A DNA stretch of 64,000 bases from Phallusia mammillata (lineage: Eukaryota), in the NCBI GenBank assembly GCA_965637545.1, contig OZ281496.1, forward strand, positions 11,904,001 through 11,968,000. The letters are read 5' to 3'. Every line of letters begins with the position of its first letter. Positions within the stretch are counted from its first letter, which is position 1. The notes under the pieces are model-generated. The model was not told the DNA's origin. It was given only the letters and a program-made list of their open reading frames with translations, and ran no database searches. This document shows positions 1,068-46,569 of this stretch, piece by piece. The position numbers and the translations under genes were made by a program.

Positions 1068-1260
1068 CAGGGATTCCCAACCGGGGGTACTCGTACCCCT
1101 TGGGGGTACGAGATTGAACATCAAGGGGTAACAAGATCGTTGGGCGACACGGCAGCTTTTTAAACAGATTTTACAGTACAGTTTTATTTTGGTATTGTAA
1201 ACGAAGAATGCTCTGACGTGACAAAGGGGTACGACCAACAAAAAAGGTTGGGAACCCCTG
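1068..1260. mobile_element. hAT (Buster/Charlie-type) MITE
   Basis: TIRs CAGGGATTCCCAACC / GGTTGGGAACCCCTG; perfect 8-bp TSD GTCTAGAT at 1060-1067 and 1261-1268. Confidence 0.9.
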
Positions 1261-2381
1261 GTCTAGATGATGTTTTGACAAGTTAAATTATTATGATGAA
1301 AATCCTTTTTGCAATTTCCATGATTCTTTCAGAGCCAAAACGATTCTTTTCAACACTGAAAAGGATGCAAACTTTTCTAAGGAATACCATTGTTTCCAAA
1401 AGACAGGCGTAAATATGCAGTCTGTTATGAGGATATTTCGTCAAAAGAAAGTTTGGCAATGTATAGCAATGCTTATTCAATTTTGTGATGTTGTAGTTGG
1501 AATAGGTTGGCAATAACTTTTTGTTGTTGAGACTATTGAGTTGCATTTAGTAACCACAACAAAAGCGACACTGACACTTATGGAAATTGCATGTGTGCTG
1601 CAACAATTTGAACTTTCTATCATGACTGTTGTGTGCCAACATGCTGTGTCTTTATTACATGCTGCTTAACAGTTTTATTACCATTGTGAGTTTAGTTCCG
1701 ATATCCGGTAACTCTGTGTTTACCAACAGAGCGTCACAGGATGGATGACGTCATATAGAACAATGGTATTACAGCTTTACAATAAACGCCCATGTCCATA
1801 TTATACTTGTATTGAAGCAAAACGCTCGAAAGAAGCATACACGCGAGTAGTAGCAGAATTTAGAATCTAAAAACTTGTTAGGAAAAGTTTTTTTTTACTT
1901 TTCAATTTTGACGCTTTTTCTGAGAAAGTGAAAACAAGTGTAGACGCGTTATTCAACGTAAAACGTGAAACAAAAAAAATGTTACATTTTGCATTTTCCC
2001 AGGCTAAGTTAAACTTTATTAGCCCGGTGGATTCAAACCTGATGATGCCATACAACTTAGGAGATTCTCGTAGTGGTGATAGTTTACAAGCAGGGGAAGA
2101 TCCCTATTTAGAAGTGGAATTCATTATTTCGAGGGTTCGCGGTCTGTAAGCCAGAATGTGTATTTCAGAAAAACGAAAATTAAAATTGCGCATAACAATG
2201 ATCAAAAGACAGCATGTGACACCACAGACAAGATAAAAAACAACAACATTACAATTGTGCGCAAACAATTGCATTTTTGTTAGTTGTTATGCAATAAAGG
2301 CTATTGGAGACAGTCGATTCTCAATTTTACATTGATTTAAACTGATTCAAAGGCACCAACTGACGCCCAAAAAAATTATAA
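1207..2381 (+). repeat. 1.17-kb direct repeat, copy A (host DNA on the left of endogenous virus 1)
   Basis: Near-identical to 5561-6728, from AATGCTCTGACGTGAC to CCCAAAAAAATTATAA. I saw two differing spots: a short indel near 1926/6278 and CAAC versus AAAA in an A-run near 2240/6590. Confidence 0.95.
2002..2149 (+). other. Probable terminal coding exon of an unidentified host gene (duplicated at ~6348-6495)
   Basis: Pyrimidine tract and CAG acceptor (CATTTTCCCAG|GCT), then open AKLNFISPVDSNLMMPYNLGDSRSGDSLQAGEDPYLEVEFIISRVRGL*; protein family not recognised. Confidence 0.4.
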
Positions 2382-3677
2382 TATATAGTCCGCCATTTTG
2401 ACTATGTCCTCGTCGATTGGCCTCTCCTGCAACAATTCCACCATTACCTCTTTTGCCAACTCTATCATGATCTCGTTCGTTCTTGATCCCTTTATCTCTT
2501 TTTGAGACCCTGTCTCAGGATTTGCCGCATCCTCCGGCCACATTGCCTGAATGAACCTCCGTTTCATAGGCTGGAGATCGCCAAGACTTGCCAATTTGAT
2601 CATTGGGTTTTTCGTATTTGTTGTTATATACGCACATGTCGCCTTGTTGTCTTGGCGATCTCCATGGGTCTTCGCACTCCAGTTAGAGTGATACATAAAT
2701 TTAACTGCTGAGATGAGCGCGTCATTGTTGAAGAAACTTGACCCCGCATCATCTATCTTTAACACCTTATGTTTGTGGCGCAGCGCCATCTGCCCCACTC
2801 CCTGCGAGTCGTTGGTCAAGGTACTCGCATACTCCATGGGGAACAAGAACTGACCTAATAAGGTCTTGCCCTTGCCTGCTGCCCCATGGAGACAGAAGTG
2901 GGGTGCGAAACGGATCCCATCCTGCTCCTCGTTTCGCGCCTCTAGCGCTGCGCACACCAGAGCGATCTTCAGCTCGAACGTGTTAAGCTTCCCCTCGTTC
3001 CACTCTATATGTTTTGCCTGGTTGATGATGTCGTTAATGATCTTACATCCATCTTTTACAGACCATTCCTCGTATTTCTTTTTATTGACTCGCCGGAACG
3101 CCTTCTTCATCTTCCGGTTCGCCTTCCCGAAGCTCACGGTGTTATATGCTCTTTTTGCGAGCGTTTCCGGGAAGGCGAAGTCCTTCTCAAAGAGGCGTTC
3201 CTTGAAGGCATTGCAGCTCGGCTTGGTATCAAACGAGTTTGCTACCTCCTCGGCGATCTTCTGCCAACGGGACTGGTTTCCATATTTGTTTCGCTCGTTC
3301 CCTATTTTTTCTATTAGCTCTGGTGGGATTATAGCTGTCTTTTTGTACATATAACGAATGTACGCATTCATATCCTTGACAGGGGCGATATACAGAACGT
3401 TTATGCCCATGCTTGTCAGGATCCGGGTCACACTTTTCTTGGTTAGCGGCGTTGGCCTGCCACTGCCAGTCTGATTGACACCGATGTATAGCCCATGTCG
3501 GTGGCCCTGGTTGGACTGGCCCCGCTCTGAATTCCCCAGGTAAATTACGCCACTGGGTATTTGGTGGATCCCCTCTACCTCCGACTCTGTTGTAAAGGCC
3601 CACTTTCGCGCGCGATAGTTTGCGTCTTCTTCTTGCGGTAGATTCATCCTTGTATACTTCGAATAGCTCTTGTTCAA
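2376..3677 (-). CDS. rep: Replication initiator: HUH endonuclease plus SF3 helicase (first ATG at 3647)
   Basis: RCR motif I RKWAFT, motif II GHRHG, motif III YIRYMYK; Walker A HGAAGKGKT, Walker B VLKIDD, motif C YITTN, Arg finger PMKRRF; the stop codon lies in the duplicated host flank. Confidence 0.9.
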   Translation of the reverse strand: MNKSYSKYTRMNLPQEEDANYRARKWAFTTESEVEGIHQIPSGVIYLGNSERGQSNQGHRHGLYIGVNQTGSGRPTPLTKKSVTRILTSMGINVLYIAPVKDMNAYIRYMYKKTAIIPPELIEKIGNERNKYGNQSRWQKIAEEVANSFDTKPSCNAFKERLFEKDFAFPETLAKRAYNTVSFGKANRKMKKAFRRVNKKKYEEWSVKDGCKIINDIINQAKHIEWNEGKLNTFELKIALVCAALEARNEEQDGIRFAPHFCLHGAAGKGKTLLGQFLFPMEYASTLTNDSQGVGQMALRHKHKVLKIDDAGSSFFNNDALISAVKFMYHSNWSAKTHGDRQDNKATCAYITTNTKNPMIKLASLGDLQPMKRRFIQAMWPEDAANPETGSQKEIKGSRTNEIMIELAKEVMVELLQERPIDEDIVKMADYIL

Positions 3678-3789
3678 GTAACTTTAACGTAGCGTTATTT
3701 TCAGCAACAGTTTTGTTGATATCAGATTTATAAAAGTTCTTAGCTATACTTTGCACTGTAGACGAAGCAGGTAATTGTTCACTGTACAT
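3229..3789 (-). CDS. 186-aa ORF overlapping the 5' part of rep in another frame (NS2-like arrangement)
   Basis: ATG at 3789 (MYSEQLP...); a counterpart with the same frame offset and similar length is in element 2 (46570-47136). Confidence 0.6.
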   Translation of the reverse strand: MYSEQLPASSTVQSIAKNFYKSDINKTVAENNATLKLLEQELFEVYKDESTARRRRKLSRAKVGLYNRVGGRGDPPNTQWRNLPGEFRAGPVQPGPPTWAIHRCQSDWQWQANAANQEKCDPDPDKHGHKRSVYRPCQGYECVHSLYVQKDSYNPTRANRKNRERAKQIWKPVPLAEDRRGGSKLV

Positions 3790-3835
3790 ATTGTAATGAT
3801 AATAAACACAACGAAACACAACATATATACACTTT

Positions 3836-3891
3836 CGTTGGTACCGGTACCACATCATCGGTACTGATTTTAAGTGGTACCGGTACTAACG
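3836..3891. promoter_or_regulatory. Intergenic stem-loop between capsid stop and ORF3/rep; candidate replication origin
   Basis: Arms CGTTGGTACCGGTACCAC (3836-3853) and GTGGTACCGGTACTAACG (3874-3891): 18 bp with one G-T pair, 20-nt loop; no canonical NANTATTAC. Confidence 0.55.
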
Positions 3892-5361
3892 TGGATTGCA
3901 CAATATAACTTTTGCTGACATGGTGTATGGTATTGTGATATAATTGTCGGTCTTTGTTGCGTATACTTCAGCTCCTGCCGACTCTTGGCTGTACGCCACT
4001 GCACACAGATCCTTTTTGATTGATTCCTCGTATATGTGCATCTGAGTATGCATTAGTTTCCCCGATGGTGGTTTCCCTTGTGTGACATCATACCACGGTG
4101 TTTCATCCATTGTGGATGCCGTGTCATTTGTTGATGTAGAACTTGCAATGCATGTAGTATGCGTGTCCCTTTGGAGGAACTTAATTTTTATCACCGTGTG
4201 GTCATCACCCAGCTGGTATCTTGTCATGTTCGGAAACGATTGAAGCGGAAACTCTGTACTGTCAGTATCGAACACGAGAGTTGACACTTGTCCAAAGTCG
4301 AATTTGTTGTCGTACACCATGCTATCAGTGTCCCAAGCCACGTCCATGTACACCATTGGTAATGTCCTGCCACTATCTTCCTGCCTGTTGAGGCATGCTG
4401 CTGGCCACAGTACAATGTTCCAGTCGGCACACTTAAACATCTCGTACTGCGACCCCATTCCCGTTGCTATTATTTCATTTAGACTGTTGTATGACGTCAG
4501 TCCTTGAGGTCCAAAGACTTTCCATCTTCTTGATGCTACTGATCCTCTGTCCCTGCCTAGGCATAGCTGCCTTGATATGACGTCACTGTGGACTATTGAT
4601 TGGTTTGCTATCGCCGGGTAAGCAACGCCTTCAGCCGTCGTCGTAGACTGCCAGTTGTACCACGGTGCCCAGTTTGTCTGCGGTGCTCCCTTGTAAAACC
4701 AGATGAATCCCTTGGTAACCATGGTGTAGGTACATGTAGGACTAGTTGGGTGCATTCTGGGTATGGCCATGGTACGGGTTCCAGACCTTCCCCCGCCTGA
4801 GTTCCCCGCGACACTTTGTCCAAGCCTTGCTTGTTTGGCAGGAGGGTCTCCTCCTCCTCCTTCATCGTCATACATACTGTCCCCATCATTGAGTTCCATG
4901 TCATCTAATTGACTTGTCGGTGGTGACGTTGCTGAAAAACCTCTTTTCCTCATAGCTCCGTCTGCTGGTATGTTGGTGGAGGTGTTTGGTTCTCCTGCAG
5001 CAGCCTTCTTAAGTTGTCTGTTGCGATTGATCTTCTTAAGCCTTGCCCAATCCTTTTTTTGATTGGGCATCTGAGGTAATACCGCCTTTTTAAGTAAAAA
5101 TATATTGCGCACAGTTGCAGCAGCAGGGCCAGTATGATGAGAAATATCTCGCAGTAAATCGTCGTCTGCAGTATTGTATTGCCAGTATGCACTGTTTCCA
5201 AGCTTCCCGTATTGTTTGTCGTGTTCTCTACACTTTGCATCTAGTTCAGATGTTACTTCTTCCCCTATGCTATTCCCAGGCCCACAATGTGGATGTCCAG
5301 GTATTGTAATACCACCAGTTGCGACCTTCTTAGTCGAGCGCAGCGGCATAATGATCAACAT
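3886..5361 (-). CDS. Capsid protein, 491 aa, with N-terminal parvovirus-type phospholipase A2
   Basis: Ca-loop IPGHPHCGPGN, catalytic DAKCREHDKQY and YNTADDDL; basic patch KKDWARLKKINRNRQLKK; Gly-rich linker and PPAKQARL; beta-rich C-terminal ~300 aa with QYEMFKCADWNIVLWP. Confidence 0.9.
   Translation of the reverse strand: MLIIMPLRSTKKVATGGITIPGHPHCGPGNSIGEEVTSELDAKCREHDKQYGKLGNSAYWQYNTADDDLLRDISHHTGPAAATVRNIFLLKKAVLPQMPNQKKDWARLKKINRNRQLKKAAAGEPNTSTNIPADGAMRKRGFSATSPPTSQLDDMELNDGDSMYDDEGGGGDPPAKQARLGQSVAGNSGGGRSGTRTMAIPRMHPTSPTCTYTMVTKGFIWFYKGAPQTNWAPWYNWQSTTTAEGVAYPAIANQSIVHSDVISRQLCLGRDRGSVASRRWKVFGPQGLTSYNSLNEIIATGMGSQYEMFKCADWNIVLWPAACLNRQEDSGRTLPMVYMDVAWDTDSMVYDNKFDFGQVSTLVFDTDSTEFPLQSFPNMTRYQLGDDHTVIKIKFLQRDTHTTCIASSTSTNDTASTMDETPWYDVTQGKPPSGKLMHTQMHIYEESIKKDLCAVAYSQESAGAEVYATKTDNYITIPYTMSAKVILCNPR
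4950..5240 (-). CDS. 96-aa single-pass membrane protein overprinted (+1 frame) on the PLA2 region
   Basis: TM segment EIFLIILALLLQLCAIYFYL, basic KRRYY..KKR, PPPTY, C-terminus QTEL; same-length homologue at 45243-45533. Confidence 0.75.
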   Translation of the reverse strand: MQSVENTTNNTGSLETVHTGNTILQTTIYCEIFLIILALLLQLCAIYFYLKRRYYLRCPIKKRIGQGLRRSIATDNLRRLLQENQTPPPTYQQTEL

Positions 5362-5370
5362 ATTAATTTT

Positions 5371-5530
5371 ACTTACCTTATATACTTCCTCTTTCTCCTT
5401 TCTCCTATTCTCCTAGTACCAGTACCACTTCTGTGGTACTACTGCTATGTGGTACTGCTTATAACACCCTCTATGTGGTACTGGTACTTCAATATTCTAT
5501 TATATCCATTAACCCATTGATCTAATAGGT
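5371..5530. promoter_or_regulatory. Capsid-upstream region: TATA/donor-like GTATATAAGGTAAGT, reiterated AGTACCAC motifs and inverted repeats
   Basis: Inverted repeat AGTACCAGTACCAC (5415-5428) / GTGGTACTGGTACT (5475-5488); small hairpin AGTACCAC-TTCT-GTGGTACT (5421-5440). Confidence 0.55.
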
Positions 5531-5560
5531 ACCATTATTTGGTACTGTGACGTCAGAATA

Positions 5561-6728
5561 AATGCTCTGACGTGACAAAGGGGTACGACCAACAAAAAAG
5601 GTTGGGAACCCCTGGTCTAGATGATGTTTTGACAAGTTAAATTATTATGATGAAAATCCTTTTTGCAATTTCCATGATTCTTTCAGAGCCAAAACGATTC
5701 TTTTCAACACTGAAAAGGATGCAAACTTTTCTAAGGAATACCATTGTTTCCAAAAGACAGGCGTAAATATGCAGTCTGTTATGAGGATATTTCGTCAAAA
5801 GAAAGTTTGGCAATGTATAGCAATGCTTATTCAATTTTGTGATGTTGTAGTTGGAATAGGTTGGCAATAACTTTTTGTTGTTGAGACTATTGAGTTGCAT
5901 TTAGTAACCACAACAAAAGCGACACTGACACTTATGGAAATTGCATGTGTGCTGCAACAATTTGAACTTTCTATCATGACTGTTGTGTGCCAACATGCTG
6001 TGTCTTTATTACATGCTGCTTAACAGTTTTATTACCATTGTGAGTTTAGTTCCGATATCCGGTAACTCTGTGTTTACCAACAGAGCGTCACAGGATGGAT
6101 GACGTCATATAGAACAATGGTATTACAGCTTTACAATAAACGCCCATGTCCATATTATACTTGTATTGAAGCAAAACGCTCGAAAGAAGCATACACGCGA
6201 GTAGTAGCAGAATTTAGAATCTAAAAACTTGTTAGGAAAAGTTTTTTTTTACTTTTCAATTTTGACGCTTTTTCTGAGAAAAAATGTAGACGCGTTATTC
6301 AACGTAAAACGTGAAACAAAAAAAATGTTACATTTTGCATTTTCCCAGGCTAAGTTAAACTTTATTAGCCCGGTGGATTCAAACCTGATGATGCCATACA
6401 ACTTAGGAGATTCTCGTAGTGGTGATAGTTTACAAGCAGGGGAAGATCCCTATTTAGAAGTGGAATTCATTATTTCGAGGGTTCGCGGTCTGTAAGCCAG
6501 AATGTGTATTTCAGAAAAACGAAAATTAAAATTGCGCATAACAATGATCAAAAGACAGCATGTGACACCACAGACAAGATAAAAAAAAAAAAACATTACA
6601 ATTGTGCGCAAACAATTGCATTTTTGTTAGTTGTTATGCAATAAAGGCTATTGGAGACAGTCGATTCTCAATTTTACATTGATTTAAACTGATTCAAAGG
6701 CACCAACTGACGCCCAAAAAAATTATAA
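5561..6728 (+). repeat. 1.17-kb direct repeat, copy B (includes only the right end of the 1068-1260 MITE)
   Basis: Near-identical to 1207-2381. Confidence 0.95.
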
Positions 6729-7009
6729 GAAGTACTTCGACCTTTCCGCGGTCCCTCAAAATTGCCTCACGGACCCCCAAAAGACTACGGACCCCAGTTT
6801 GAGAACCGCTGATCTAGAGGTTGGCAATTAGTTTAGTAAGAGGCTTGTGTTGGATGGAAGAAGCAGAGTTGTAAGTCGGGCAGGACTTTTCGGGTTTGGG
6901 CCTGGTCCGGGTTAAGTTTTTTCAACAAACGGGCTTGATTCGGGCCTGACTTTATTTGTTAAAGATAGGAGATTTAAATAAGTTTACCATACGAAACAAA
7001 AAGTTACGC

Positions 7010-7250
7010 CACGGTTGTTGTGTTCTGACTACGTGGTGCGTGCCACGGTTTTCGTGTTCTGACTTCGGTGCGTGCCATGGTTTTTGTGTTCTGATTTATG
7101 GGTATGCTACCGTTTTCGTATTTTGACTTGGGGGTGTGCTACGGCTGATGTGTTCTGACTTTGGTGCGTACCCTGGGTAATGTGTTTGAGATAGTTAGGA
7201 TTAGAGACTAGTATAATGTGTTTGAGATAGTTAGGATTAGAGACTAGTAT
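7010..7250. repeat. Degenerate ~30-bp tandem repeats, then a 36-bp tandem duplication
   Basis: Units like GGTTTTCGTGTTCTGACTTCGGTGCGTGCCAC x~5; TAATGTGTTTGAGATAGTTAGGATTAGAGACTAGTA x2. Confidence 0.75.
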
Positions 7251-7281
7251 CAAATCTATTTGCAAAGTGTTTGCTCTAACT

Positions 7282-7599
7282 CAGGGGTCGGCAACCACTG
7301 GCACGCGTGCCAAGGTTGGCACGCTAAGTCGTTTTTCATGGCACGCCGAACGATTTGCGTGTTTATATTGAAGTAGCAATTTAACCTGTTACACTGCTTG
7401 TTTATAGTTTGTATATGGCCAGTTTGTATCATGCCAAATTCAGTCTTACATGAACAAAACACTCTGCTTTTTCTTTATTATTGATATCTGCTGGCACGAA
7501 TCACTATCATTTAGAAAAAAACGTTGGCACGCGAGGGCATTGAGGCATGGAAACAACAAGTAAATTGGCACGCGTCGCCTAAAAGGTTGCCGACCCCTG
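7282..7599. mobile_element. hAT MITE
   Basis: Perfect 15-bp TIRs CAGGGGTCGGCAACC / GGTTGCCGACCCCTG; degenerate TSD CTCTAACT / GTCTAAAT. Confidence 0.85.
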
Positions 7600-8019
7600 G
7601 TCTAAATGGTGAAGAATTTGGTTGGAAATGGAACAGTGTAAGACAGGGTTGCACAATATTTGCGCTACGACGGCCATATCGCAGATTCCTATTTCACCAA
7701 CGGCTGGCATTCACCTGCTCGGTTTTGTTTTAAAATCACTGATGTCAAAAAATTGGTTTATATCATATATATACCATCTAATGTAGCCAAAACGCCCCTA
7801 ACTTAATGCACATAATAAGATGCACCGTGTGAAGATCAGTCTTAACCGTTTATTACCCCAGAATCTACATTGTTGCGCTTGTGGTATCTGTTTTTCGCAT
7901 TGTTAGCACACAATAAGCATACAAACAGTCTGATGTATATGCCTACTAAGCTGGTAATACTCTTTTTCAGTACCACAACTCGGTATTGCTGCCAGGCATA
8001 ATATCAAGTTTGTAGAGTT

Positions 8020-8470
8020 CTTCTGGAAAACGTAATTTTATTCCGACGTTTCGACGTCATATACAGGCCGTCTTCATCAGGGTAAATAACACTGAATGCG
8101 ACTAGTACAGTGCACCATAAACAAAGAAAAAAAGAATGAAACGCAAGCACGTCACAAAGCAACGAAAACACCGCGCGATAACGAATGATTGGGCCTAAGT
8201 AGGTGCCTGTAGCACGCGGAAAGCATCACGTCTGTTTTGATGTTCATTGTGTTGGCCCGTGGTGAATATTCCATGACTCAAGAAATAGTCTTTTCCTGTA
8301 GTCAGGCTCCCTGGTCACAACAGACGCCGCAGTGAAATCAATACAGTGCCTTGTGATACCGCGTGATTGGAAAGGGACGACTTCTTTTCGCATCGGTGTT
8401 GGCAACATTCCGTCGATGACCAGCGATCACGACACACCTATATAAGAATCATAGTACGCTTGGCCTATTA
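8020..8470 (-). mobile_element. Penelope-like retroelement 3' remnant (GIY-YIG C-terminus and hammerhead-like tail)
   Basis: Minus-strand fragments SYIG... and HCIDFTAASVVTREPDYRKRLFLESWNIH; downstream CTGATGA..GAAAC core at 8025-8081. Confidence 0.7.
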
Positions 8471-8556
8471 AAGGCGTAATACAGAATCAGTCCATCACCA
8501 AGCACTCACATATGACAAGGCGAAGTCTGATTCAAGTTTCTGCGGTTTATCCACTG

Positions 8557-8625
8557 AGCCAGTGTAGCTCAGAGCACGAGTACCGGATAAACTCCTGTCG
8601 TGGGTTCGAATCCGATCGCAGGTGT
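8557..8625 (+). mobile_element. tRNA-derived SINE head (Pol III A and B boxes)
   Basis: GTGTAGCTCAG A-box-like and GGTTCGAATCC B-box; no proper D-arm or cloverleaf. Confidence 0.55.
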
Positions 8626-9208
8626 GCATTGCAACATAGGAATGCTTGCGAGACCGACTTGATTTAGTATCACGTCTTCAAAAAAAAGGATATTGATAAT
8701 TGCAATTTTGCCGATGAATGGAAGTTTTCTAGGTGCAATGTATTTTGCATGTCTTAAAATTGGAGACCAGTTTTTACGTGTATCGAAGGATCTTAAGTTA
8801 CAATTTATACCAAACAATTTGGCTTCATTTTCAGTCCACTTGCCTGACAATATAAATTTATTTGTTTAAAGATTTCTAGTATTCACTGTTTCTTTGAAAT
8901 TGAAAACGTTGAATCGTTGGCGTATTGTGGATTTGGGTTTCAATTTTTCCAATTTTAAATCCATTTATATTCTTATTATTATTTACCGCATTAATTAGAC
9001 TGTACTGACCCTCAGTCTGATACAAGGGCATGGAACAGGGCCACTCATCGTTAGATGTCTATTTTTAGTATTGGTGTCATATTTACGTAGATTTTCCTGG
9101 CAACATTTTTGTTTTGTATTTTAACCATAATGTAGTACAAGGTTTTTTAAGGTTAAAAGCATCGGGCTTTTTCAACATTACTTAGAAATTGGTGTCGAAG
9201 GCTAAGTT

Positions 9209-10744
9209 TTGCTAAATTCAATATGTGATGGAACAATTACGGATCGCATCGGAATACTGGGTGAAATTAATTGTTCCAACATGTTTTCTTGTTTCTCAAA
9301 AGAAAAGATCAACATAAAAAGCATTCAGGTGTGTGACGGAAAAGTGGATTGTGACGACAGCTCAGATGAATTTTTTGAAACCTGTAAACACACCCGTTTT
9401 TATTGCCAAATTAAAGACAAAACTTCTATTGACAGAAAAAAGTTTTGTGACGGAATTATTGATTGTGACAATGAATCCGATGAAAGCAAATGCCGTTGCG
9501 AAGATAAACGATTTTATTGCACAAATAAACAGCCTTTGTCAGTTGAATGGAAATTGGTCCAGAATGGAATTCTGGATTGTTCGGACGGAAGTGATGAATG
9601 TGTAAACTTAGCTGGGGACGCATTTGCAGACGTCAATGAAATGATCGCCAATCCAATATACCGAGCAATTTTCTGGATAACAGCTGTGTTAGCTTTAGGA
9701 GGAAATTTATATGTATTTGTTGCAACTGCTCACAGCTTATGGAATGTTCACAGAAACCAAAACCTTTATATCAGCACCAGCATTTTCATTCTAAATCTCT
9801 GCTGCTCTGATTTTCTCATGGGAATTTATCTACTTACAATTATAATCCAAGGAACTCGATTTTCTGGTTCATACTGTTTGTTTGATAAAAAATGGAGATC
9901 AAGCAGTTTCTGTTCAGGACTTGGAGCACTTGCAATTATTTCTTCGGAGGCATCGGCATTTACGATGACAGCCATGACCACTTTTCGACTTGTATCAGCT
10001 TTTAAACCATTTACAATTCGAAGTGTAGGTGTTCTTAAAGTTTTATTTGCCGAATTGTTTTGCTGGATTTCGGCTGTTGTTTTGGCAACAGTTCCTTTAC
10101 TAAAAGTCACTTCAGAATATTTTACAACTGATGTTTGGTTTCCAAACAACATTATTGGAAATGATTTTGTTTCCAGGGAAAACATATCACTTCTTGCAGA
10201 AAGAATTATTGGTATAAAAACAGAAAGTTGGAACAATGTGAAACGAATTATAGAAATGACATTTCCTCGCAATCCAATCAAAGGGGAGTTAGGATATTAT
10301 GGAGAAACAAGCCTCTGTATGCCACGTTTGTTTGCCGCAACCAGTGAATTTGCTTGGTAATATTCAACTTTCCTTATCACAATCAATCTCCTCATGTTTA
10401 TCTACATGGTGGTTGCATATGTTCTCATCTACAAACAGGGCAACCGCATGAATGGATCCAAAAGCATTGATATCAGTTTCAAGATGCAGAAGAGAATCTC
10501 GAGGTTAATTTTGACCGACTTCTGTTGCTGGATTCCAATTTGTGTCATGGGATATTTAAGTCTTGGAGGAATCAAGATACCACCAGATGCATATGTGTTG
10601 AGTGCTTGTCTGTTGCTTCCAATCAACAGCGCTCTTAATCCCTTACTTTATTCAAAAGAATTAGAGGATTAACTTGCCAGGACAAAGAAATGGCTGGTGG
10701 GGAAATTGCCGTCTTTACGATCATCTACAAATCGGTCATTGTAA
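9209..10744 (+). pseudogene. LDLa-repeat class A GPCR (GRL101/RXFP-like) with two in-frame TAA stops
   Basis: LDLa repeats CDGKVDCDDSSDE, CDGIIDCDNESDE, NGILDCSDGSDE; TM1 WITAVLALGGN, TM2 NLCCSDFLMGIYL, TM6 LILTDFCCWIPI, TM7 LPINSALNPLLY; frame continues through TAA at 10358-10360 and 10670-10672. Confidence 0.85.
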
Positions 10745-16250: not shown

Positions 16251-17563
16251 GCCTCTGAAGGTACAGAAACAAAAAATCGCCCTTAAAAAGGGCACACATT
16301 TTTGCATCACGAATGGCTGGCACCTTGTCGTGGTGTGATCTCACAACGCCTCCGCCAATGGATCTTCTGTCAAAAAATAGATTTTTGTTTTCTGTGTTTT
16401 TATTCGTTTTTGGTTAAATTTATTGACTTATACGCAATGTTCCCATCGACATGGACCCTATATAAAATATAACCGAAATATGGCTAATATAAAACTAAAA
16501 AAACACTATGGCTTTTTTGGCGAAACTAAATATAGTTTTGTAAACAAATCTTTGCATTTATACGAGCCATCACATATTACACGCAATCTTTTTGCCATAA
16601 CAATCTGTTCCAGCAACTTCTAGGTCGTAGAAAATGTATTTTGCATCTTATAACAGCTCAGATCTCGGTTTACTTTTACTGGTAGGAAGATTTTGACTAG
16701 TCCAAAAATTGTCAAAAAGACAAAATAGGGTCACAAGTTGAAAACATGTACATTTCTTACAAATAAGGACAAAAATTTTTTTTTTTTCACATTACTCTAC
16801 AAAATAAGAGCAAATCTAAGAAATAAGAACAGTATGAAAACCCTGCTTACTCTGTAGCAAACAGTATTTGTTTCCGCTTGTCTGTTTTTGCATTTTGTGT
16901 GTGTTACTTTGGCAACAATCAAGATCTTCTGATTAAAAGGTTTATAGACTGTCTGCTCCCAGTTAAAATTAGTAATGTGCGTTCTGCATTTTTAGAATAA
17001 TAAGCTTTCATTTTTTGTTTGAGCCTATATTAATCGCGTTTTCACGTACTATCAGATGTTCCTTTTTTGCACAAACGGCCAAAAACTCAGTTAAAGCTGC
17101 AAACACTACCAAACAAGGCAGATCCTCAATTTGCTGAGAGAGTAGTTTCAATGAATTTACCTAACGACTAACGACATTTCAGCTTTCTTTGCTCCCATGT
17201 TTTGTCATCCGAAACTGTTTCTTAAATCTACAGTACGCCCACAGGCATAACGTTAACGACCGACTTGCGTTTGCTACAAACTTCAAAATTCGCAGCGAAT
17301 CTAAAATTAACAAGTTTAGATGTCCGCCTTTGTGCAGTTTCCTGGCGTACGCTACGTTTCAATTAGAGCACAACTATAAACCCATGTGCAAGGTGTTGTG
17401 ATTGATACCTCAATTTTCCGCATTTTGTTGAAAAATAACATACACATTTTGTTGAAAAATAACATTTATCTTCACATAGTGTAAACATATTTCATCTTGT
17501 TTCACCTGTTGAACGTCCACAACTATGGTGGCCCATCGTTGTCAAATAGTTTTGCATGAAAAA

Positions 17564-18000
17564 AATCGTTTTCATTTTAAAATCGTTTTCATTTTAAAAT
17601 TAATTTCATTTTAAAATCAATTTCATTTTAAAATTAATTTCATTTTAAAATCAATTTCATTTTAAAATCAATTTCATTTTGAAATCAATTTCATTTTGAA
17701 ATCAATTTCATTTTGAAATCAATTTCATTTTGAAATCAATTTCATTTTAAAATCAATTTCATTTTAAAATCAATTTCATTTTAAAATCAATTTCATTTTA
17801 AAATCAATTTCATTTTAAAATCAATTTCATTTTAAAAACGTTTTCATTTTAAAATCAATTTCATTTTAAAATCAATTTCATTTTAAAATCAATTTCATTT
17901 TAAAATCAATTTCATTTTAAAAACGTTTTCATTTTAAAATCAATTTCATTTTAAAATCAATTTCATTTTAAAATCGATTTCATTTTAAAATCAATTTCAA
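17564..18000. repeat. 17-bp minisatellite, ~25 copies, near-palindromic unit
   Basis: Unit AATCAATTTCATTTTAA with variants; flanked by GTGGCCCA(T/G)CGTTGTCAA at 17528, 18016, 18056, 18111, 18151. Confidence 0.95.
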
Positions 18001-19370
18001 AATGAAAATCCTCGTGTGGCCCATCGTTGTCAAACCTATAGTTAAGCATAGCGCAGTGGCCCATCGTTGTCAAGCAAAAAAAAAAAAAATTCAAAATGAA
18101 AAATCCTCGTGTGGCCCAGCGTTGTCAAACCTATAGTTAAGCATAGCGCAGTGGCCCATCGTTGTCAAACATAAAAATCATATACACGTACATAAGCACA
18201 TGGTGTTTAACTGGAAATTGCTAGTTCTACCATTGATACTATACAATGATACTATGTTGTATAGTATCATTGGTTCTACTAACAAAACTCACACCAGGGG
18301 CAGAGCTATAAACACGGAACAGAGTATAGACGTTTGCCCTGGCAATAATTGCTGAGTCAGCAAAGCAGTCAACAACTTTGAGGCCAAAAACATTTTTTAG
18401 TAAGTCTTCTTGAGTAAAAGTGAGTTGACTAATAATGAGACATAGTACAACTACAGTGAACAGCACCTCAAAATCCATGCTATGCTGCCAGCAGTGAAAA
18501 AAGTAATGTAGGGTACGTCCATAATATACAGGATTACTGGGTGCAGCAATATCAACCTTTGGATCGATAAAGGTACATCGAGCCATGCAAAAAAGCGATT
18601 AAATTGTGCATCAAGCCAGCCTGTTTATTTTAGATACACCGTATTGTGTACACTGACGTTTTTGTAACGTCTAAAAGTGTACACCAGATTTGTCAGAAGC
18701 CGACGTGACCCGTTAGCCTTGTTTTATCTGATAAGAGCTAGCTTAACCCCCTGTTTAGTCCATAACTAAGTGGGCTAGGCGGGCTCGTAGTTTTAAACAC
18801 CACCCTAGTTGCACATATGAAAGTTAAAGGATGGAAGATCATTTGGTAGTAAAGCCAATAAAACCGTCGAAATAATACGAATTAAAAACACTTTTTGATA
18901 ATTGCTCGTCCATAATTGTTTTGATAAAGTAATGGTACCTGAATGATTGACGTCCGTTATAAATACCAACATCATTATTTATACAGGTTTAAGTTCCTCA
19001 ATGGAAAAGCTATATGCTGACTGTTACATGTGCCTGTGTGGTATTTATCTGCCTAATTTTGCATCCCTGAAGTAACACAAAAAATTTTAAATTGTCTGCT
19101 GACCACAACTAATCTGACAGATGATATTGCTGTTATTGTATTCTAATCAATGTACTATTGCCATGTTTTATTGAAATCAATAAAAATTTCTCATTTTGTG
19201 TGAACAAAAACAACAAGCTCTTTACGGATAGGTTGCCAGTTTAAAGAAAAAAAACACTCAAAAAGTGTCACTTTAAGAAACAAAAATTTTTCTCTCATTT
19301 CAAAATGCAACATAAAAGCACCACGGATACAAGCATTTTAATGTTAGTTGACATGTCAAATCCAAACTAT

Positions 19371-20615
19371 TTAATGCACATCAGGAAGTTCTTGGAACCT
19401 TTCTCTAAGAAATAAGTAAGCAGAAGAAGCATCACAGGATTCTATATCTTCAGGGTGGCTGAGGATGTTTTTGCATTTTTTAACAAAATCATTTGTAGGC
19501 CAATAATCTGGACATTCCAGCACACCAGACATTCCTGCTACATCTTTTAGATCATCTTCTGTTAAAGATAGGCCTTTTTTGCTTGCACCATACTTTTCTG
19601 GAAATGAAAACATGTGATTAGGCACTCCACATGGAAGTTGAATTTCAGCTTTTTGTGCTCTGATTCTGTGACTGTTCCAGCTATCAACAAAGATGGAGCA
19701 TTCCCTCGTTATAATTGGACCATATACGTAAAACAAAAGGGAGCGATCCGCTGGGCTTTCCCGGTTATATTTTTTCTCAACTAACAATGATTGTAACTGA
19801 ACTTTGAAAAACTTCTCAAATCGCTCATGTAAATCCCGCCACCATCTTTCCATTTTGTTTGTGTTTGAAGGCCCATACAGAATTGAATCTGTTGCATCTG
19901 TGTAATACCCAATATGTTGTATGAGATAAGAGTGAATTGATGCCATTTTACCAGTTTCTGTTCCACGATCCAACCGAAGGTGTACTGGTAACAATAAAGT
20001 TTCACAAAGAAACTCTAAGTATTTCTTCCCGATTACCAAAGGACTTGAATTTGATTGTGTAACAAACAGAAACATGATTTTCCGTGAAAATGTGTCCATA
20101 CAGCCATAAATCCCCAAAGGAAAGGTATAATTTTGGTACCCACATAACTTGTCATGACCATCAAGAGATACTACCCAGAATGGGCCATCAGATACAAATG
20201 GATGCTTGTCCCGTTTTTTCTTGTGCTGTACATTTCTGTGTGCCAGACCATTGGGATCCAAATCTTGCATCACTTTATATACCAAGTGTCTTGGAACCTT
20301 AAGATTATATGTACATCGTACTTTTCGATGCATTGCTCTGTAACCAAGCAGACATCCTGGACCCAACAACTCCTTATCTACAGCCTTTTCTATGTCTGAT
20401 TTTGTAACATGACTGTCAACATAATATATCTCAAAATGTCTCATTCTTCTATCCAAGGTTGATAAACTCCAAGCATAGCTTTTAAAGTCCCTTATCATGT
20501 AATCTAGTATTTCAGATCTTTTTAAGTTTTGTTTTACATACAACTTCAAATCTTCTTTTAATTGGTTGTCACTTTTCCATGACTGTACAAAGTTAGCTAC
20601 CTGTTCCAACATCAT
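19371..20615 (-). CDS. IS3/IS481-type (IS3EU-like) DDE integrase/transposase, intact 414 aa
   Basis: N-terminal HTH (SLSTLDRRMRHF; LGYRAMH); catalytic SLDGHDKL...GCMDTFSRKI...RLDRGTE...NKMERWWRDL. Confidence 0.85.
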   Translation of the reverse strand: MMLEQVANFVQSWKSDNQLKEDLKLYVKQNLKRSEILDYMIRDFKSYAWSLSTLDRRMRHFEIYYVDSHVTKSDIEKAVDKELLGPGCLLGYRAMHRKVRCTYNLKVPRHLVYKVMQDLDPNGLAHRNVQHKKKRDKHPFVSDGPFWVVSLDGHDKLCGYQNYTFPLGIYGCMDTFSRKIMFLFVTQSNSSPLVIGKKYLEFLCETLLLPVHLRLDRGTETGKMASIHSYLIQHIGYYTDATDSILYGPSNTNKMERWWRDLHERFEKFFKVQLQSLLVEKKYNRESPADRSLLFYVYGPIITRECSIFVDSWNSHRIRAQKAEIQLPCGVPNHMFSFPEKYGASKKGLSLTEDDLKDVAGMSGVLECPDYWPTNDFVKKCKNILSHPEDIESCDASSAYLFLRERFQELPDVH

Positions 20616-20774
20616 GTCCTAACACAAACTTTAGAAAAATAGGCCTTTTGTGAACAGTACCATATCTATGGGGATAAAAACGATAATTATCACACCAATA
20701 TTCTCAAACGTTATTAGTGAAACTAATTTAGCAGTAAAATGTGATAGGTCACAACAAACTTGGCAAGACAGAGG

Positions 20775-22033
20775 TTAGCAGTGAACCTTAGTAAGATTCA
20801 TTAACTCACAATACTTGTTGCAATGATGGTTGCTTACAAATTCATTAATAGCAATTGCTGAAAGATTTCCAGCACAAAACATAATTTCTGTACTGTCACT
20901 TTTACAAAACAGATCCTTAGTTGCTATTTCTGGATCATAAAGCTGAAAACCTGTGCCTTGGACATCTAAAAGCATGAAGCTTTTGTTCGAGTATTCATAA
21001 CTATAATGCACCAAGCACTCTGCCTTCTCAACAACTTCAACTCTGCCCCTTTGTACTTCACCAGTGTTGTTGACGTATTTGGTAAACTTTCCTTCTACAT
21101 ATGGTTCAACAGTAGCAGCCTTTCCTTTGTATGTTGTGTAAAAAACTGTTTTGTACTCAAATGTTTCCCCCAAATCAGGAGGTGCTAGTGATCTAAATTT
21201 CTCAGTAACAGCTTTGGCTACGCTGTGCATCTGCACCTGCTTTTTTGCATGTGCTTCGAGGGTCAAACTCAAATCATTTGTTACAGTGTCTTCTGCTTCT
21301 TTGCGATAAGTTTTTAAAACCCAGCATTCTTGCTGTTCATGTTGGCGTTGTTTGACACAAAAGGCCTTGTAGGCATCTCTAAATGCTCCATGGGAAAACT
21401 GATTTTCTTCAACATCAAAGGAATCAGGTGGGTGTTGAAACCAATCTAAATTTTGCAATACAAATTCATCTTTGATTAATATAACTCGATTTTTTGGCAC
21501 TGACTTAACAAGTTTTCCAGCTCTTAAGAGTTTGGTGATTGAGATGGATGGTGGATTGATTAAGGGTATCTTTTGAAAGTCATTGTCATCATGATTGTGG
21601 TTGGTAGATTTGCTTGCACATGTTTTGGATACATTTGCTTGCTCAGAAATGGCTAAAAATCGTATCATAAAGAACTTTTTACCCTTCACCTGCTCAATCC
21701 GAGAACAAGATGGCCCTCTATCAGATGCCAAAACATCACAAGATCCAGATGGCTGATTGTAAAACTCCTCACAAGCTTTTTTAATGCTATCAAGAGAAAG
21801 TTCACTGCTGTGGTATGGAACAAAGTCCCGGGTATCCATTGGTTCGAACTTTTTTAATCTTCCTGATGGCACACTGGCCATTTTTTGAACCATAATTTCT
21901 GAAGTTACATTTTTTTCAGGTTTCTTTCCTTTTCGTTTGACTGCTAACCGAGCTTCCAACTGTTCCCAAGTCTCTTTTCGCTTCATATCAAATAAATTTT
22001 TTTGTAAAAGTTGTGTTTTTGCCAAACATTCTA
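20775..22033 (-). CDS. Alpha-kinase (eEF2K/MHCK/TRPM7-type domain); main exon, with a decayed 5' exon likely up to ATG ~22565
   Basis: FSHGAFRDAYKA, VLKTY, VEPYVEGKFTKYVNN, AECLVHYSYE, MLLDVQG, LYDPEI, FCAGNL...HHCNKYC; acceptor TTTGTTTAG near 22033. Confidence 0.9.
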
Positions 22034-23793
22034 AACAAAGTAAATAATAAAAAAATAATAGAAGCTAGTTTATACATCATGCAGCAGACTGTACTTGACC
22101 TAGCGTCCATTAAAGCAAAACATCAGTAAAACGCCACAAACTTATGCCTATTACCACAATTTTGTGGTCTTTGTTGTCTACAAATCGCTACAAATAAAAG
22201 TTACTGCAGTAACATATATCTATTTTGTGAAACATCTTTACATTCTTTAGGGCTCCACGGCCACGCTAAGTTTGCCCGTAATCGGATGAGTTAAACATCA
22301 CGTGCTTATGTAGTGTAATGGATCTTTCCATACACATCGGGATTGTCGCTTCGTAAAGAATTGCCTTTTCCATCGAACCTGATCCAATGCTTTACAATGT
22401 TATTGTTTGGCATTACAAATCAATACTCTATATATTTTTTTTATTTGATTTGCGGCGGTTGGTGACTTGCAATTGGGTCAGCATGATCACACGCGGGTGT
22501 AACCATGTTAACAGGCATTTCCATGCACGGTTTCTTGCTTTGGATGCAATCATTCATCATCGCCATTTTAAATATTTTTGCGGGACTGTACCTAACTCCT
22601 GTTTTACGGCAGAGACGCGACTGTTGTGCTTGCGATGGTCGCGTCACAGGGTTAACTTAGTTTAAGGTGTGAAAAAGTTGTGTTAATGATGAGCGATTGA
22701 CGTCATTTTTTGCATGACGTCATCAGAAGGTGTGATGACGTCGTGTATAAAGTTTGGGCTCGCTACGATGAGTATTTCACAAAATGGCGTTTTTTAGAAA
22801 GCCTGTAAAAAAAATTATGACGTCATAGTGACGTCATTATGTGTGTGACGTATCCGGGTTATGACGTACTTCATCATATATCAATATTGTTAAGTTACGT
22901 CATAAGGTTCGGAAGTTATTGCGTTTGGTCAAGAAAGTACACCGGACCCGATTAGTTGACATCGCAAATATGCCCATATTTGCTGGACTTTCTGCAAAAC
23001 ACTCCGATTGCAAAACAATTTCAAAAGCAGATGAAAAAGAAGAGCGCCCAACACAAGAATTTTTTCTCATTATTTTATCGGCTAAAAAAACGATTTTTTA
23101 AACCGTTGGTCAGCATCAAAAACACATTTGATTTCTCAGATTATTGTCTTCCGGATATGCGGCTTGACCCAGCCGAAAAAGCTCTATAATAAACATTCTG
23201 TCTGTTTCTTCCACTTTCTGGGTCCTTGCCACCAGGTCTTGTTTGGCCTTGTTCCTGAACACATTGCCGCTGGTTCATTTAATTCCAAGTGCCTTTAGGA
23301 CTTTGTAATCAGAGTCCCTGCTGATTTGTCCCATAATCGAGTGACGGAATAAAAATTCCTTTTGGTATGCTTTAAACAGCGATATACTGCACCGCAAGCT
23401 TTTTTAGACTACGTCATAGTCATGATACAATAAGACACAAAGCACATCAAATGGGTAATCCTGCTCTACCATTGACAAGTTAGTTCCTGTAATTGTTAAG
23501 TCGTGCGCTCGCTGTTTGCATTGACAATTGTTGTAAAACACCGCTTAGCAGATTGTCAAATACTGCAACTGCTGGTTATAAATTTATTGTTGATTACACC
23601 GTGCACAGTATGAAGCTTAAACTCGATGCTGTTGACGAAATGCATTTCAAATACAATTTAAATCTGAAAAAGGTTCGTAGCATGTTCGTTGTTACTACAT
23701 GTTAGTCCTACAGCAGTTCAGCACACAGAAGATATTCTGGCATGCTTAACTTAGTTTAAATGTGACCGTTTTTTGCAGAGTATCGGGACCACA

Positions 23794-29949: not shown

Positions 29950-31950
29950 TTTCTTCAACCGGTACTTGATCGAGTAAATCTGAATGCACGTGACAAACAG
30001 CTAGATGATTTAAGCGAACCTAGGTAGTCGTGCTTCTCAGCCAAGTTTTTAGACGCCGAAGTGTTGAAAAACTTCGCTCGCATTCACAAGAGCTGACAGG
30101 GCACACCAAAAGCAGTTTGAGCAAAACAAACACCTGCGTGAATAACTGGCGTAGCTCGGAACTCATAGCGCGATAAGCCAACTTCGCTTCGTTTACAGAA
30201 CTTGCCCCCGTGTGCTGCTTAAACATCGGCAACTGTACAGATAGTTGAGTTACATTCATTTGAGGATATTTTGAAATTAAATCTAAATTTGTTGCTGTGC
30301 CCTTCATTATCATATTTTTGATTTTCAAATATGTTTGGAAGCTTGAGTTGCGGACATCATACCGTTTCTGCAAACACCCAAGTAAACAATCAATAAACTC
30401 CACGTACAACAATCTGTAATGGTCTTTGGCACATTTGGCGTGGAAGTGCGGTGAGGATCCAACGAAACGCGGTGTCGGCTGCCGACGGCGTGGCACAGAA
30501 ATTTCATCAAGCCCCAAATTCGCTGATATCTTTGTTGCTTCTTCAAAAACGTTCGTGTACATTATAGGGGCACGAAATACTTGTATCTGCTTCGCTGTTG
30601 TCGCTACAGCCTCTATTGATCCTGCATAACATACAAACCTAAGCATTCTGTGTCTAAAAATTGGTACAATTACTACCTGATAAATTTGAAGAAGGTGCCT
30701 GCATCGAGCTGTTTAGTTGTTCCAGCAGAGCTATTGTTTTTTTAACAAGGTATAAAGCTAAGAATGTTTCGGTTTTCTCGAAACGATTCAAAAGAGCACT
30801 GGCTTTGGTGGCAGAATCTGCACTCCCCTCCGACATGCTGCGAAGACTTTCAGTTACAGCAGAATAATTTTCCAATACCGATAAAATTGCCGACAATCGA
30901 CACAGCAAACGAGTTGGACAAAGCGGCCGAATCGATGCTTTTGTATTGATGAGCTCCGTACTACAAGGAACAACGCTTTCAATCACATCCTGCAAACATT
31001 AATCATGATTTAATAATCACACAAAAAACACATAAAATAGTTACGTCGCCTTACCGTAAACTTTCCAGATCTCTTAAATAACACGCCTAGTTCATGGACC
31101 CATTGGACGGTGTCCCTGAAAAACGGACAACTTGCAATTGATTCCTGCATAACCAAGTTTGCCAAGTGTGACTGGCAATGGAAATATGTAGCGAGTGGGT
31201 ACTGACTGCTAATAACGGATTGACACCCATTGTACTTCCCACTCATATTTGAGGCCCCGTCGTACGTTTGTGCACGTATTTGACCAGCAGATAGGGAAAA
31301 TCGAGTCAGAACGTCTCAAATCATCCTTGCAATTGCATCTCCAGGTGTCTGCTGCATTTTGACCAGACACAGAAAATCTTCATGTACACATAGCTCCGAA
31401 TCGACATGGCGGATGCAAACAGACTCTTGCTCACTTCCACAAATATCTTGTGTGCCGTCGACCATCACTGCGAACATACCATTGGCTTTAATTTTAGACG
31501 CTAAAAATCGTAAAATAAAGTGACTGAACATTTGTGTCATTTCTTGCTGACCACGAAAGTTGGTTTTTCGCTGGAGGAACTCTTTTAACTCGGCACTGTC
31601 TTCAGCACGAAGTTTTAGGAGTTGGTGGTAATTTCCTTCTCCGTCGCCATGGCCTCGGATAGTCAGACCTTGTCGCAACAAATATCGCAAAGACGTGAAC
31701 AATTTTATCAGCGATCGCCTGGCAGCAGCTTGTTGTTCGTTAAAGCCTGTGTTTATTTGAAGTGCAACAGACAAACAATTCGATTGAGTTCCATTGTTGA
31801 CAACAATGTGAATTATGATGTAGTATTATGTCGTTAGATTTGTGTTAGACTTATATCTTATTTTTGGCTCAAGGGTATGAAAAATATTGGGGGAGACAGA
31901 TGAATGGAAGTCCCCCCCCAACCAAATTTTTTTGGGGGGACATGCCCCCG
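29950..31950 (-). mobile_element. hAT Tip100/ZMYM1-like transposase, fragmented
   Basis: RYLLRQGLTIRGH, FAVMVDGTQD, FHCQSHLANL, LCPTRLL, PVSSCECERSFSTLRRLKTWLRST. Confidence 0.85.
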
Positions 31951-44900: not shown

Positions 44901-45133
44901 GAACAGAACGTTTAGCAGCGTACGAATAATGTAACAAAACAGCATAAAGATAAAGGGACGTGTGAGTAGTTAATTGTGTAAAACAAACTCCATATTCTAC
45001 TATCTGGCACTGGCACAACAGTTATTTTTAAGGCGGCACCGCACCAGTAGGATGAGGTAGTGTGTGCAGTGCTGGTGTCAGTGGTGTCAGAAAAGGGTAT
45101 ATGAGGTAAATGAAAAATTATTTAAAAGTCGGA

Positions 45134-46479: not shown

Positions 46480-46569
46480 ATGTATATTACTTTTGTTTTT
46501 TCGTTTGCATGATTTATGGTTCGTTGTATTTGAGTTTGCATGCACATTAAAAATTTGTTAACCTTACAG

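What the first reader, a model, noticed from the sequence alone, without database searches (positions are those of the whole stretch)
1207..6728. Virus 1 is bracketed by a 1.17-kb near-identical direct duplication of host DNA
Seen: 1207-2381 and 5561-6728 are near-identical and abut the viral ends exactly. The duplication starts inside a hAT MITE and includes a probable host exon. This is far larger than any normal TSD. Inference: single-crossover integration of a virus-host chimeric circle, or repair of widely staggered nicks or template switching during rolling-circle replication. Alternative: an assembly join of an insertion-bearing and an empty haplotype.
Basis: partly seen in the sequence, partly recalled or inferred. 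Interest (0 to 1): 0.75.

Follow-up and report, generated by a model that had tools for sequence, protein, structure and literature searches.

The report
Virus insertion that duplicated host DNA
A 3.2-kb piece of an unclassified small DNA virus sits between two near-identical copies of 1.17 kb of its animal host's DNA; sequencing depth indicates the duplication is real, and it likely arose when DNA-break repair copied host sequence from one end of the virus, a pattern already described for tumour viruses in human cells.

Summary
Confirmed: 1207-2381 (D) and 5561-6728 (D') are 99.0% identical and differ at two A-rich sites. They bracket a 3,179-bp insert (V) with a PLA2-bearing capsid gene followed by a HUH/SF3 Rep gene. 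D starts inside a hAT MITE. V's left end is probably a break in Rep's tail, not a natural terminus.

Contig depth argues against an assembly join. D is 1.6-2.3 times the right flank in two runs carrying this virus copy and 1.0 times in an independent run. At one site a second, diverged allele appears in addition. No junction-spanning record was shown.

The independent run carries copy 1's allele, so D' is the derived copy. The V|D' junction forms an 11/12-bp stem, reached by 3 of 3000 random host positions.

[quoted passage not shown] Rivals: AAV-type Rep nick (0.25), chimeric circle (0.1), assembly join (0.06).

The architecture is known; this is an apparently heritable invertebrate case. The virus is a multicopy endogenous lineage that my searches could not place in a named family, with a relative annotated in Styela clava.

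The parts
1068..1260 (.). hAT-type MITE (MITE1), complete, flanked by 8-bp duplication GTCTAGAT; the duplication breakpoint lies inside it at 1206/1207
   Evidence: TIRs and identical 8-bp flanks
1207..2381 (+). Host copy 1 (D, 1175 bp); carries the allele also seen in an independent run, so likely the resident copy
   Evidence: table 8 record 21 (X3: 1 other letter + 8 gaps against D')
2003..2145 (+). Exon-like stretch inside D (also present in D'); unverified
   Evidence: splice-like ends; no homologue
2382..5560 (-). Viral insert V, 3179 bp, GC-richer than host; member of a multicopy endogenous family
2376..3647 (-). Rep/NS gene, 423 aa: predicted HUH nuclease (motifs WAFT, HRHG, YMYK) + helical linker + SF3 helicase; last codon and stop come from host D, C-terminal tail probably lost
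3232..3786 (-). Third ORF overlapping Rep's 5' part in another frame (approximate start); a similarly placed ORF exists in virus 2
3841..3886 (.). Hairpin with GTACC/GGTAC repeats between capsid stop and Rep; no counterpart found in virus 2
3886..5361 (-). Capsid gene (~491 aa) with N-terminal PLA2-like domain; C-terminal part resembles CRESS-type capsids by language-model features
   Evidence: PF08398, E 1.5e-10
5415..5488 (.). Inverted repeat with GTACC/GGTAC repeats upstream of the capsid gene; candidate origin/Rep-binding region (inferred)
5546..5577 (.). Stem-loop across the V|D' junction: 12-nt viral arm pairs 11/12 with the host arm at the start of D'
5561..6728 (+). Host copy 2 (D', 1168 bp); begins with the 3' 54 bp of MITE1; carries two A-tract changes, at least one derived
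6729..6811 (.). Orphan 3' half of a second hAT-type MITE directly after D'; no matching 5' end found nearby

Best explanation
[quoted passage not shown] Inferred steps: (1) a chromosome break at the right end of D (2381) was joined to a viral fragment broken in the tail of Rep; (2) the free 3' end at the virus's other end, inside a predicted stem-loop of its origin region, invaded the host 1,175 bp upstream at a 12-nt near-match inside MITE1; (3) error-prone repair synthesis copied D as D' up to the break and rejoined the right flank; (4) the product was inherited, and is carried on one chromosome in the sequenced animal(s). Shown: the architecture, the doubled depth of D, the derived state of D' at one site, the junction stem. 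Inferred: the order of events, the enzyme system, and that the viral sequence beyond 5560 continued as the second arm of the stem.
For: Architecture flank-D-V-D'-flank matches the Z-pattern described and modelled in PMC7470373 (abstract and passages). Reality (per-contig depth; ratios): X1 D 173/160, V 103/88, right flank 109/100 (D/R 1.59, D/V 1.75); X2 D 604/431, V 362/259, flank 234/184/264 (D/R 2.28); X3, another study, D 21/16, flank 18 (D/R 1.04). At 6160 a variant with TTGT put in takes 72 of 245 in X1, 28 of 50 in X3 and 20 of 20 in X4. That fits a second allele and puts X1 at about three copies (two window-type plus one other); one-copy depth is about 85-107, judged from 3 of 11 single-contig joints from elsewhere in the genome, with 6 at 143-198 and 2 higher. 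The D' 8-bp loss is in an X1 contig (330 bp, no differences, depth 159.6; 163 expected if half of the copies carry it, 173 if all). X3 carries the D version. D' differs only by two complex A-tract changes and no isolated substitution, as expected of a newly and sloppily synthesised copy. Junction asymmetry: V|D' stem 11 matches, reached by 3 of 3000 random host positions; D|V 5 matches, reached by 85%. D and D' end on the same base, as expected if synthesis stops at the break.
Against: No record crossing either junction or an empty site was shown (one search left out 262 joints, 3986 loose ends, 37,703 pieces). X1 and X2 may be the assembly's own source. The tool warns that contig depth is a poor copy-number measure, and X1's D/R of 1.59 is short of 2. 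The TTGT variant could be a paralogue. Direct microhomology cannot be measured because the viral sequence beyond both junctions is unknown; the stem could be a fold-back templated insertion (8 perfect nt) or a Rep-joined origin. Near-matches to the arm are not rare: 3 distinct host sites in this window. The polarity of the second difference is untested and it could be a sequencing error. X3 and X4 hold a sister viral copy 2 letters different over 272 bp; if it sits at this locus without D', the duplication came later than the insertion. Z-pattern duplications in the paper were mostly >17 kb.
Confidence: 0.55

Rival explanations
1. AAV-type Rep-driven integration. The viral Rep nicks an origin-like host site at 1206/1207, displacement synthesis copies D, the polymerase switches onto the virus, and Rep joins the viral origin end to the displaced old strand, which becomes D'.
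For: The element encodes a predicted HUH+SF3 initiator whose helicase is structurally closest to AAV2 Rep40 and papillomavirus E1 (Z 12.7 and 12.4, tied). One junction is origin-like and one is random. The host arm is followed within 5 bp by a GGTAC core (1228), a motif at 6.6/kb in V and 1.2/kb in host DNA. AAV Rep is reported to cause partial duplication of its target (citing passages in PMC2761290 and PMC2900306; the original paper was not held and the step-by-step model is recalled).
Against: It makes D the new copy and D' the old strand, yet D' is the derived one at the one site that could be polarised. The loop holds no canonical nonanucleotide (motif recalled). There is only one repeat core at the host site, noticed post hoc. 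Virus 2 shows no bracketing duplication, though it is old and broken.
Confidence: 0.25
2. A virus-host chimeric circle (V + D) formed first and entered by one homologous crossover within D.
For: It gives the same final architecture. A 1.17-kb homology is ample for crossover. The V|D' junction could form by virus-primed copying of host DNA.
Against: It needs two extra steps. Both copy differences simplify the right-hand copy; if they came from the circle, the crossover is confined to the last ~12% of D. There is no evidence for a free circle.
Confidence: 0.1
3. Assembly artefact: an insertion-bearing and an empty haplotype were concatenated, D and D' being the two alleles.
For: No junction-spanning record was displayed. 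Depth 2:1:1 for D:V:R could also arise if the two haplotypes shared D but not the right flank.
Against: The window has no N. X1 has an additional TTGT-type version of D at about one-copy depth, giving about three copies in all. X3 has D and the right flank at equal one-copy depth with letters matching the window, so the haplotype bearing D also bears that flank. The V|D' junction has a non-random stem, which a misjoin would not be expected to make.
Confidence: 0.06
4. Two separate events: the virus inserted without duplication, and D' was added later by a local templated insertion.
For: X3 has a 99.3%-identical viral contig at depth 27.6 with D at 16-21 and flank at 18, which a non-duplicated insertion at this locus would also give.
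Against: It needs a second event exactly at the viral end that copies exactly up to the other viral junction. The family is multicopy, so X3's copy can lie elsewhere.
Confidence: 0.04

Closest known systems
Z-pattern integration of Merkel cell polyomavirus (PMC7470373; abstract and passages read), also proposed there for papillomaviruses
   Same: Viral DNA, often partial, bracketed by a direct duplication of the host stretch between the two junctions; modelled as end-joining at a break plus microhomology-guided invasion and copying (MMBIR).
   Different: There: somatic tumour cells, a dsDNA virus, junctions mostly >17 kb apart, proven by long reads. Here: an ssDNA-type virus in an animal genome assembly, apparently heritable, 1.17 kb, supported by depth only.
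AAV Rep-mediated integration at AAVS1 with partial duplication of the target (Henckaerts 2009; seen only through citing passages in PMC2761290 and PMC2900306)
   Same: HUH+SF3 initiator; duplication of target sequence at integration; one origin-like junction.
   Different: No shown Rep-binding site or nick site in the host, no shown site specificity; Rep only 9-14% identical to AAV Rep in structural alignments.
Oomyviridae / 'parvo-like hybrid virus' (Lineavirales, Cressdnaviricota; passages in PMC13426907 and PMC12451638)
   Same: PLA2-containing capsid combined with a Rep whose nuclease resembles CRESS/plasmid Reps.
   Different: Oomyviridae are linear viruses with likely stramenopile hosts. 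This element is multicopy in an animal genome, has capsid upstream of Rep on one strand, and its helicase module is structurally nearer AAV Rep40/E1 (Z about 12.5) than PCV2 Rep (Z 8.1). Phylogenetic placement was not tested.
Endogenous parvoviral elements (PMC5013282, passages)
   Same: PLA2 in the capsid N-terminus, SF3 helicase, integration in invertebrate genomes (one tunicate among 118 species in that survey).
   Different: No Parvo_NS1 Pfam hit in the window's Rep or in 29 relatives; capsid-then-Rep order in both window copies.

Membership tests
Z-pattern (MMBIR-type) viral integration | Host DNA between the two virus-host junctions is directly duplicated around the virus | tested here: met
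   depth
Z-pattern (MMBIR-type) viral integration | Virus-host microhomology at the junction | tested here: inconclusive
   11/12 inverted match across V|D' (3 of 3000 random) implies direct homology only if the virus continued as the second arm; that sequence was not obtained
Z-pattern (MMBIR-type) viral integration | Structure shown on single long molecules | not testable with these tools
   only assembled contigs were available for the 24 listed runs; none spans the stretch
AAV-type Rep-mediated integration | Element encodes HUH endonuclease + SF3 helicase | tested here: met
   model pLDDT 92; helicase Z 12.7, rmsd 3.0, 174 aligned to AAV2 Rep40; nuclease Z 8.2 to pMV158 RepB and 7.8 to nanovirus Rep; motifs conserved
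AAV-type Rep-mediated integration | Host site carries a Rep-binding site and nick site | tested here: inconclusive
   arm-like 12-mer plus one GGTAC core at 1212-1232; nicking untested
AAV-type Rep-mediated integration | Recurrent insertion at the same host motif | not testable with these tools
   no genome held; junction tables cut; virus 2 has no bracketing duplication
Integrase/transposase target-site duplication | Short (a few to ~20 bp, recalled) duplication and an encoded integrase or TIRs | tested here: not met
   1175 bp; no integrase ORF in V
Parvoviridae | PLA2 motif at capsid N-terminus | tested here: met
   PF08398, E 1.5e-10
Parvoviridae | NS1 with parvovirus-type SF3 domain | tested here: inconclusive
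   no Parvo_NS1 hit; fold hits mix NS1, CRESS Rep and E1 at 9-16% identity
Parvoviridae | NS cassette upstream of VP in same-strand genomes (order recalled) | tested here: not met
   capsid precedes Rep on the same strand in both window copies; permutation of a circular form is not excluded
Parvoviridae | Linear genome with terminal hairpins | not testable with these tools
   true termini unknown; no related locus in viral, metagenome or prokaryote collections
Oomyviridae / Cressdnaviricota | PLA2 capsid with CRESS-like Rep | tested here: inconclusive
   language-model features point to CRESS clusters for Rep (0.90-0.94) and capsid (0.90-0.94); helicase fold nearer AAV/E1
Oomyviridae / Cressdnaviricota | Rep phylogeny inside the family | not tested
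   no named reference Reps were returned by the searches, so no tree was built

The most novel reading that the evidence does not exclude
The insert belongs to an undescribed family of ssDNA viruses of tunicate-like animals (PLA2 capsid upstream of a HUH/SF3 Rep) that is currently colonising the germ line. Its Rep recognises an origin mimic carried by a widespread hAT MITE and duplicates kilobases of host DNA at insertion: a natural, heritable AAV-like integration system whose landing pads are spread by a transposon.
Probability: 0.12. Interest if true: 0.8.

Novelty: new member of a known kind. Interest (0 to 1): 0.45.

Why it matters
Long host duplications around a virus are documented in tumour cells and in AAV-infected cultures. 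My searches returned no paper on one around an inherited ssDNA-virus insertion. A young, polymorphic case with both junctions readable lets one ask whether endogenous ssDNA viruses enter genomes by passive repair or by their own Rep. It also shows that such insertions can create kb-scale host duplications. The virus may matter more than the duplication: 78 protein clusters match its Rep, none of the 20 looked up has a family name, and one is annotated in the ascidian Styela clava.

Tried and rejected
No whole genome is held, so other copies, their junctions and the MITE consensus could not be examined. In one search the tables were cut and showed no record across either junction or an empty site; that absence is no evidence.

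Related-locus scans found no true relative: viral contigs, 0 of 66 and 0 of 17 pattern matches; metagenomes, 1 of 596, a 19-residue P-loop match judged spurious, and only 1/64 of the collection was scanned; prokaryote genomes, 0 of 88. PDB sequence search gave nothing under E 0.25. The first structure model (6 sequences, pLDDT 55) was too poor and was replaced by a 41-sequence model. The exon-like peptide found no homologue.

I first argued that the origin-like host site is too rare to be found by chance near a break, which would favour Rep targeting. I dropped that: 3 distinct near-matches occur in this window. A degenerate 5' end for the orphan MITE inside D was rejected, because loose ends show that sequence belongs to another high-copy repeat (table 7).

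Earlier-findings look-ups by place, by sequence and by virus words returned nothing. Literature searches without a relevant hit. PMC4135950 and PMC6049929 passages added nothing. Section 10 of PMC7000223 mentions a PLA2 cluster among circular 'dark matter' elements only in a legend; it was not compared by sequence. No supplements were read; those of PMC5013282 and PMC7000223 could list related sequences.
Full report
OBSERVATION. Self-BLAST of the window gives 1207-2381 (D) against 5561-6728 (D'): 1176 columns, 98.98% identity, 3 mismatches and 2 gap openings. The window holds no N. All differences lie in two A-rich sites: a net 8-bp loss in D' (1927-1938) and an interrupted A-tract in D that is a pure A-run in D'. 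The copies abut a 3,179-bp insert V (2382-5560). D starts inside a complete hAT-type MITE (1068-1260) with identical 8-bp flanks, so left flank + D is the ancestral order. D' is followed by the orphan 3' half of another MITE (6729-6811), so the ancestral continuation on the right is less certain. An exon-like stretch (2003-2145) has plausible splice ends but no homologue.

THE INSERT. On the minus strand V carries a capsid gene with a PLA2-like domain (PF08398, E 1.5e-10), an overlapping third ORF, and a 423-aa Rep with no Pfam hit. A model from 41 sequences (pLDDT 92) shows a nuclease and an SF3 helicase. The helicase matches AAV2 Rep40 (Z 12.7, rmsd 3.0, 174 aligned) and papillomavirus E1 (Z 12.4), a tie, and PCV2 Rep less well (Z 8.1). 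The nuclease matches pMV158 RepB (8.2) and a nanovirus Rep (7.8). Viral fold hits mix NS1, CRESS Rep and E1 at 9-16% identity. Language-model features lean to CRESS clusters for both proteins. A profile search found 78 clusters at E<=0.001. Of 20 looked up, three carried a source label: two 'hypothetical protein' and XP_039269095.1 of Styela clava. The host is therefore plausibly a tunicate, by inference only. The Rep frame takes its last codon and stop from D, and the two nearest full-length relatives continue 86 and 104 residues further, so the left junction is probably a break in Rep's tail; some relatives have much shorter tails. A second, broken relative at about 45,100-47,700 has the same capsid-then-Rep order and no bracketing duplication (one shared 12-mer between its flanks).

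IS IT REAL? Of 24 listed runs, 11 held part of the stretch. I laid 4 of them (X1-X4, three studies, all contigs) on 2382-10400. Per-contig depths: X1 V 103 and 88, D 173 and 160, right flank 109 and 100; X2 V 362 and 259, D 604 and 431, flank 234, 184 and 264 (a further flank contig with 16 differences, depth 155, was left out of the ratio); X3 D 21 and 16, flank 18. D/flank is 1.59, 2.28 and 1.04; no D contig was listed for X4. Single-contig joints from elsewhere in the genome put one-copy depth in X1 near 85-107 (3 of 11, with 6 at 143-198 and 2 higher). At 6160 a version with four extra letters takes 72 of 245 in X1, 28 of 50 in X3 and 20 of 20 in X4. That is what a second allele would do, and it leaves X1 with about three copies: two window-type plus one other. 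D and D' are then not the two haplotypes. The D' 8-bp loss is in an X1 contig at a depth (159.6) fitting a mix of both versions (163 if half, 173 if all). An X2 contig starts exactly at that site, and X3 has the D version, so D' is derived there. All four runs hold diverse viral contigs, so the family is multicopy and polymorphic. X1 and X2 match the window's copy at 3678 and 3685, while X3 and X4 do not. Limits: no junction-spanning record was displayed, X1 and X2 may be the assembly's source, the tool warns against reading depth as copy number, and the extra-letter version could be a paralogue.

JUNCTIONS. The last 15 nt of V and the first 17 nt of D' fold into an 11/12-bp stem. Joining V's end to 3000 random host positions gave this score 3 times. 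The D|V junction scores 5, reached by 85%. If the viral arm is half of a viral stem-loop, the lost second arm was a direct 11/12 match to the start of D. That is inference, because the viral continuation was not obtained. Such near-matches occur at 3 distinct host sites in this window, so a homology search within a kilobase or two could find one. The region next to this junction is rich in GTACC/GGTAC repeats in hairpins (6.6/kb in V against 1.2/kb in host), as an origin region would be.

MECHANISM. The Z-pattern model for Merkel cell polyomavirus (PMC7470373; abstract and passages) joins one viral end to a break. The other 3' end then invades upstream at microhomology, copies host DNA to the break and rejoins. 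It predicts one homology-bearing junction, a new and error-prone second copy on that side, and two copies ending on the same base; all three fit (0.55). The AAV-type Rep-nick model (original paper not held; citing passages; steps recalled) fits the enzyme and the origin-like junction but makes D the new copy (0.25). A chimeric circle needs more steps and a crossover in the last 12% of D (0.10). A haplotype join conflicts with the depth accounting (0.06). A later, separate duplication is allowed by X3's sister copy (0.04).

COMPARISON AND NOVELTY. It works like Z-pattern integration. The defining duplication is met, microhomology is inconclusive, and long-read proof is untestable here. It is not an integrase TSD. 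The virus shares PLA2 with parvoviruses and the PLA2-plus-CRESS-like combination with Oomyviridae (passages), but I could not file it in either. Searches for a published inherited ssDNA-virus insertion with a long host duplication returned nothing, within an open-access library only. Verdict: a real feature with high probability, a new member of a known kind of integration, carried by a virus lineage that may be undescribed. Interest 0.45; the boldest reading (Rep-targeted insertion at MITE-borne origin mimics) has probability about 0.12 and would merit 0.8.

Noticed in passing
window 45,100-47,700 (+): Second, diverged relative of the virus (Rep 48% identical): same capsid-then-Rep order, capsid frame interrupted, Rep ending in the helicase, different repeat core (GGCAC-like) upstream, no bracketing duplication.
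   Followed up: partly
window about 5385-5370 and 3770-3765 (-); about 45,097-45,112 and 46,565-46,572 (+): Both viruses have a TATA-like motif followed by a GTAAG/GTAAA donor-like site before the capsid gene, and a pyrimidine-AG acceptor-like site before Rep. Rep may be made by splicing out the capsid gene; untested.
   Followed up: partly
window 3841-3886 and 5415-5488: The capsid gene is bracketed by two hairpins sharing a 16/17 repeat; virus 2 seems to lack the downstream one. They could be a second origin or a relic of termini.
   Followed up: partly
runs X1-X4 on window 2382-5560: Many viral contigs 85-100% alike in all four runs from three studies: a multicopy, polymorphic endogenous family.
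   Followed up: partly
P0018 (XP_039269095.1): Rep relative annotated as an uncharacterised protein of Styela clava, suggesting endogenous copies in ascidians.
   Followed up: no
window 6729-6811: Orphan 3' half of a hAT-type MITE directly after D'; may mark a deletion at rejoining or an older scar.
   Followed up: partly
window 9206-10672 (+): Intronless LDLa-repeat GPCR-like gene with an in-frame stop at about 10358-10360; multicopy in the laid runs, where many contigs read another letter at 10358.
   Followed up: no
window 19371-22064 (-): Adjacent intronless integrase-core (PF24764) and alpha-kinase (PF02816) ORFs, probably a mobile element with cargo.
   Followed up: no
window 17562-18177: AT-rich tandem array with a unit of about 17 bp or multiples (inferred from self-BLAST offsets).
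   Followed up: no
window 30020-31825 and 60473-62272 (-): hAT transposase remnants (DUF4371, Dimer_Tnp_hAT), possible partners of the many local MITEs.
   Followed up: no
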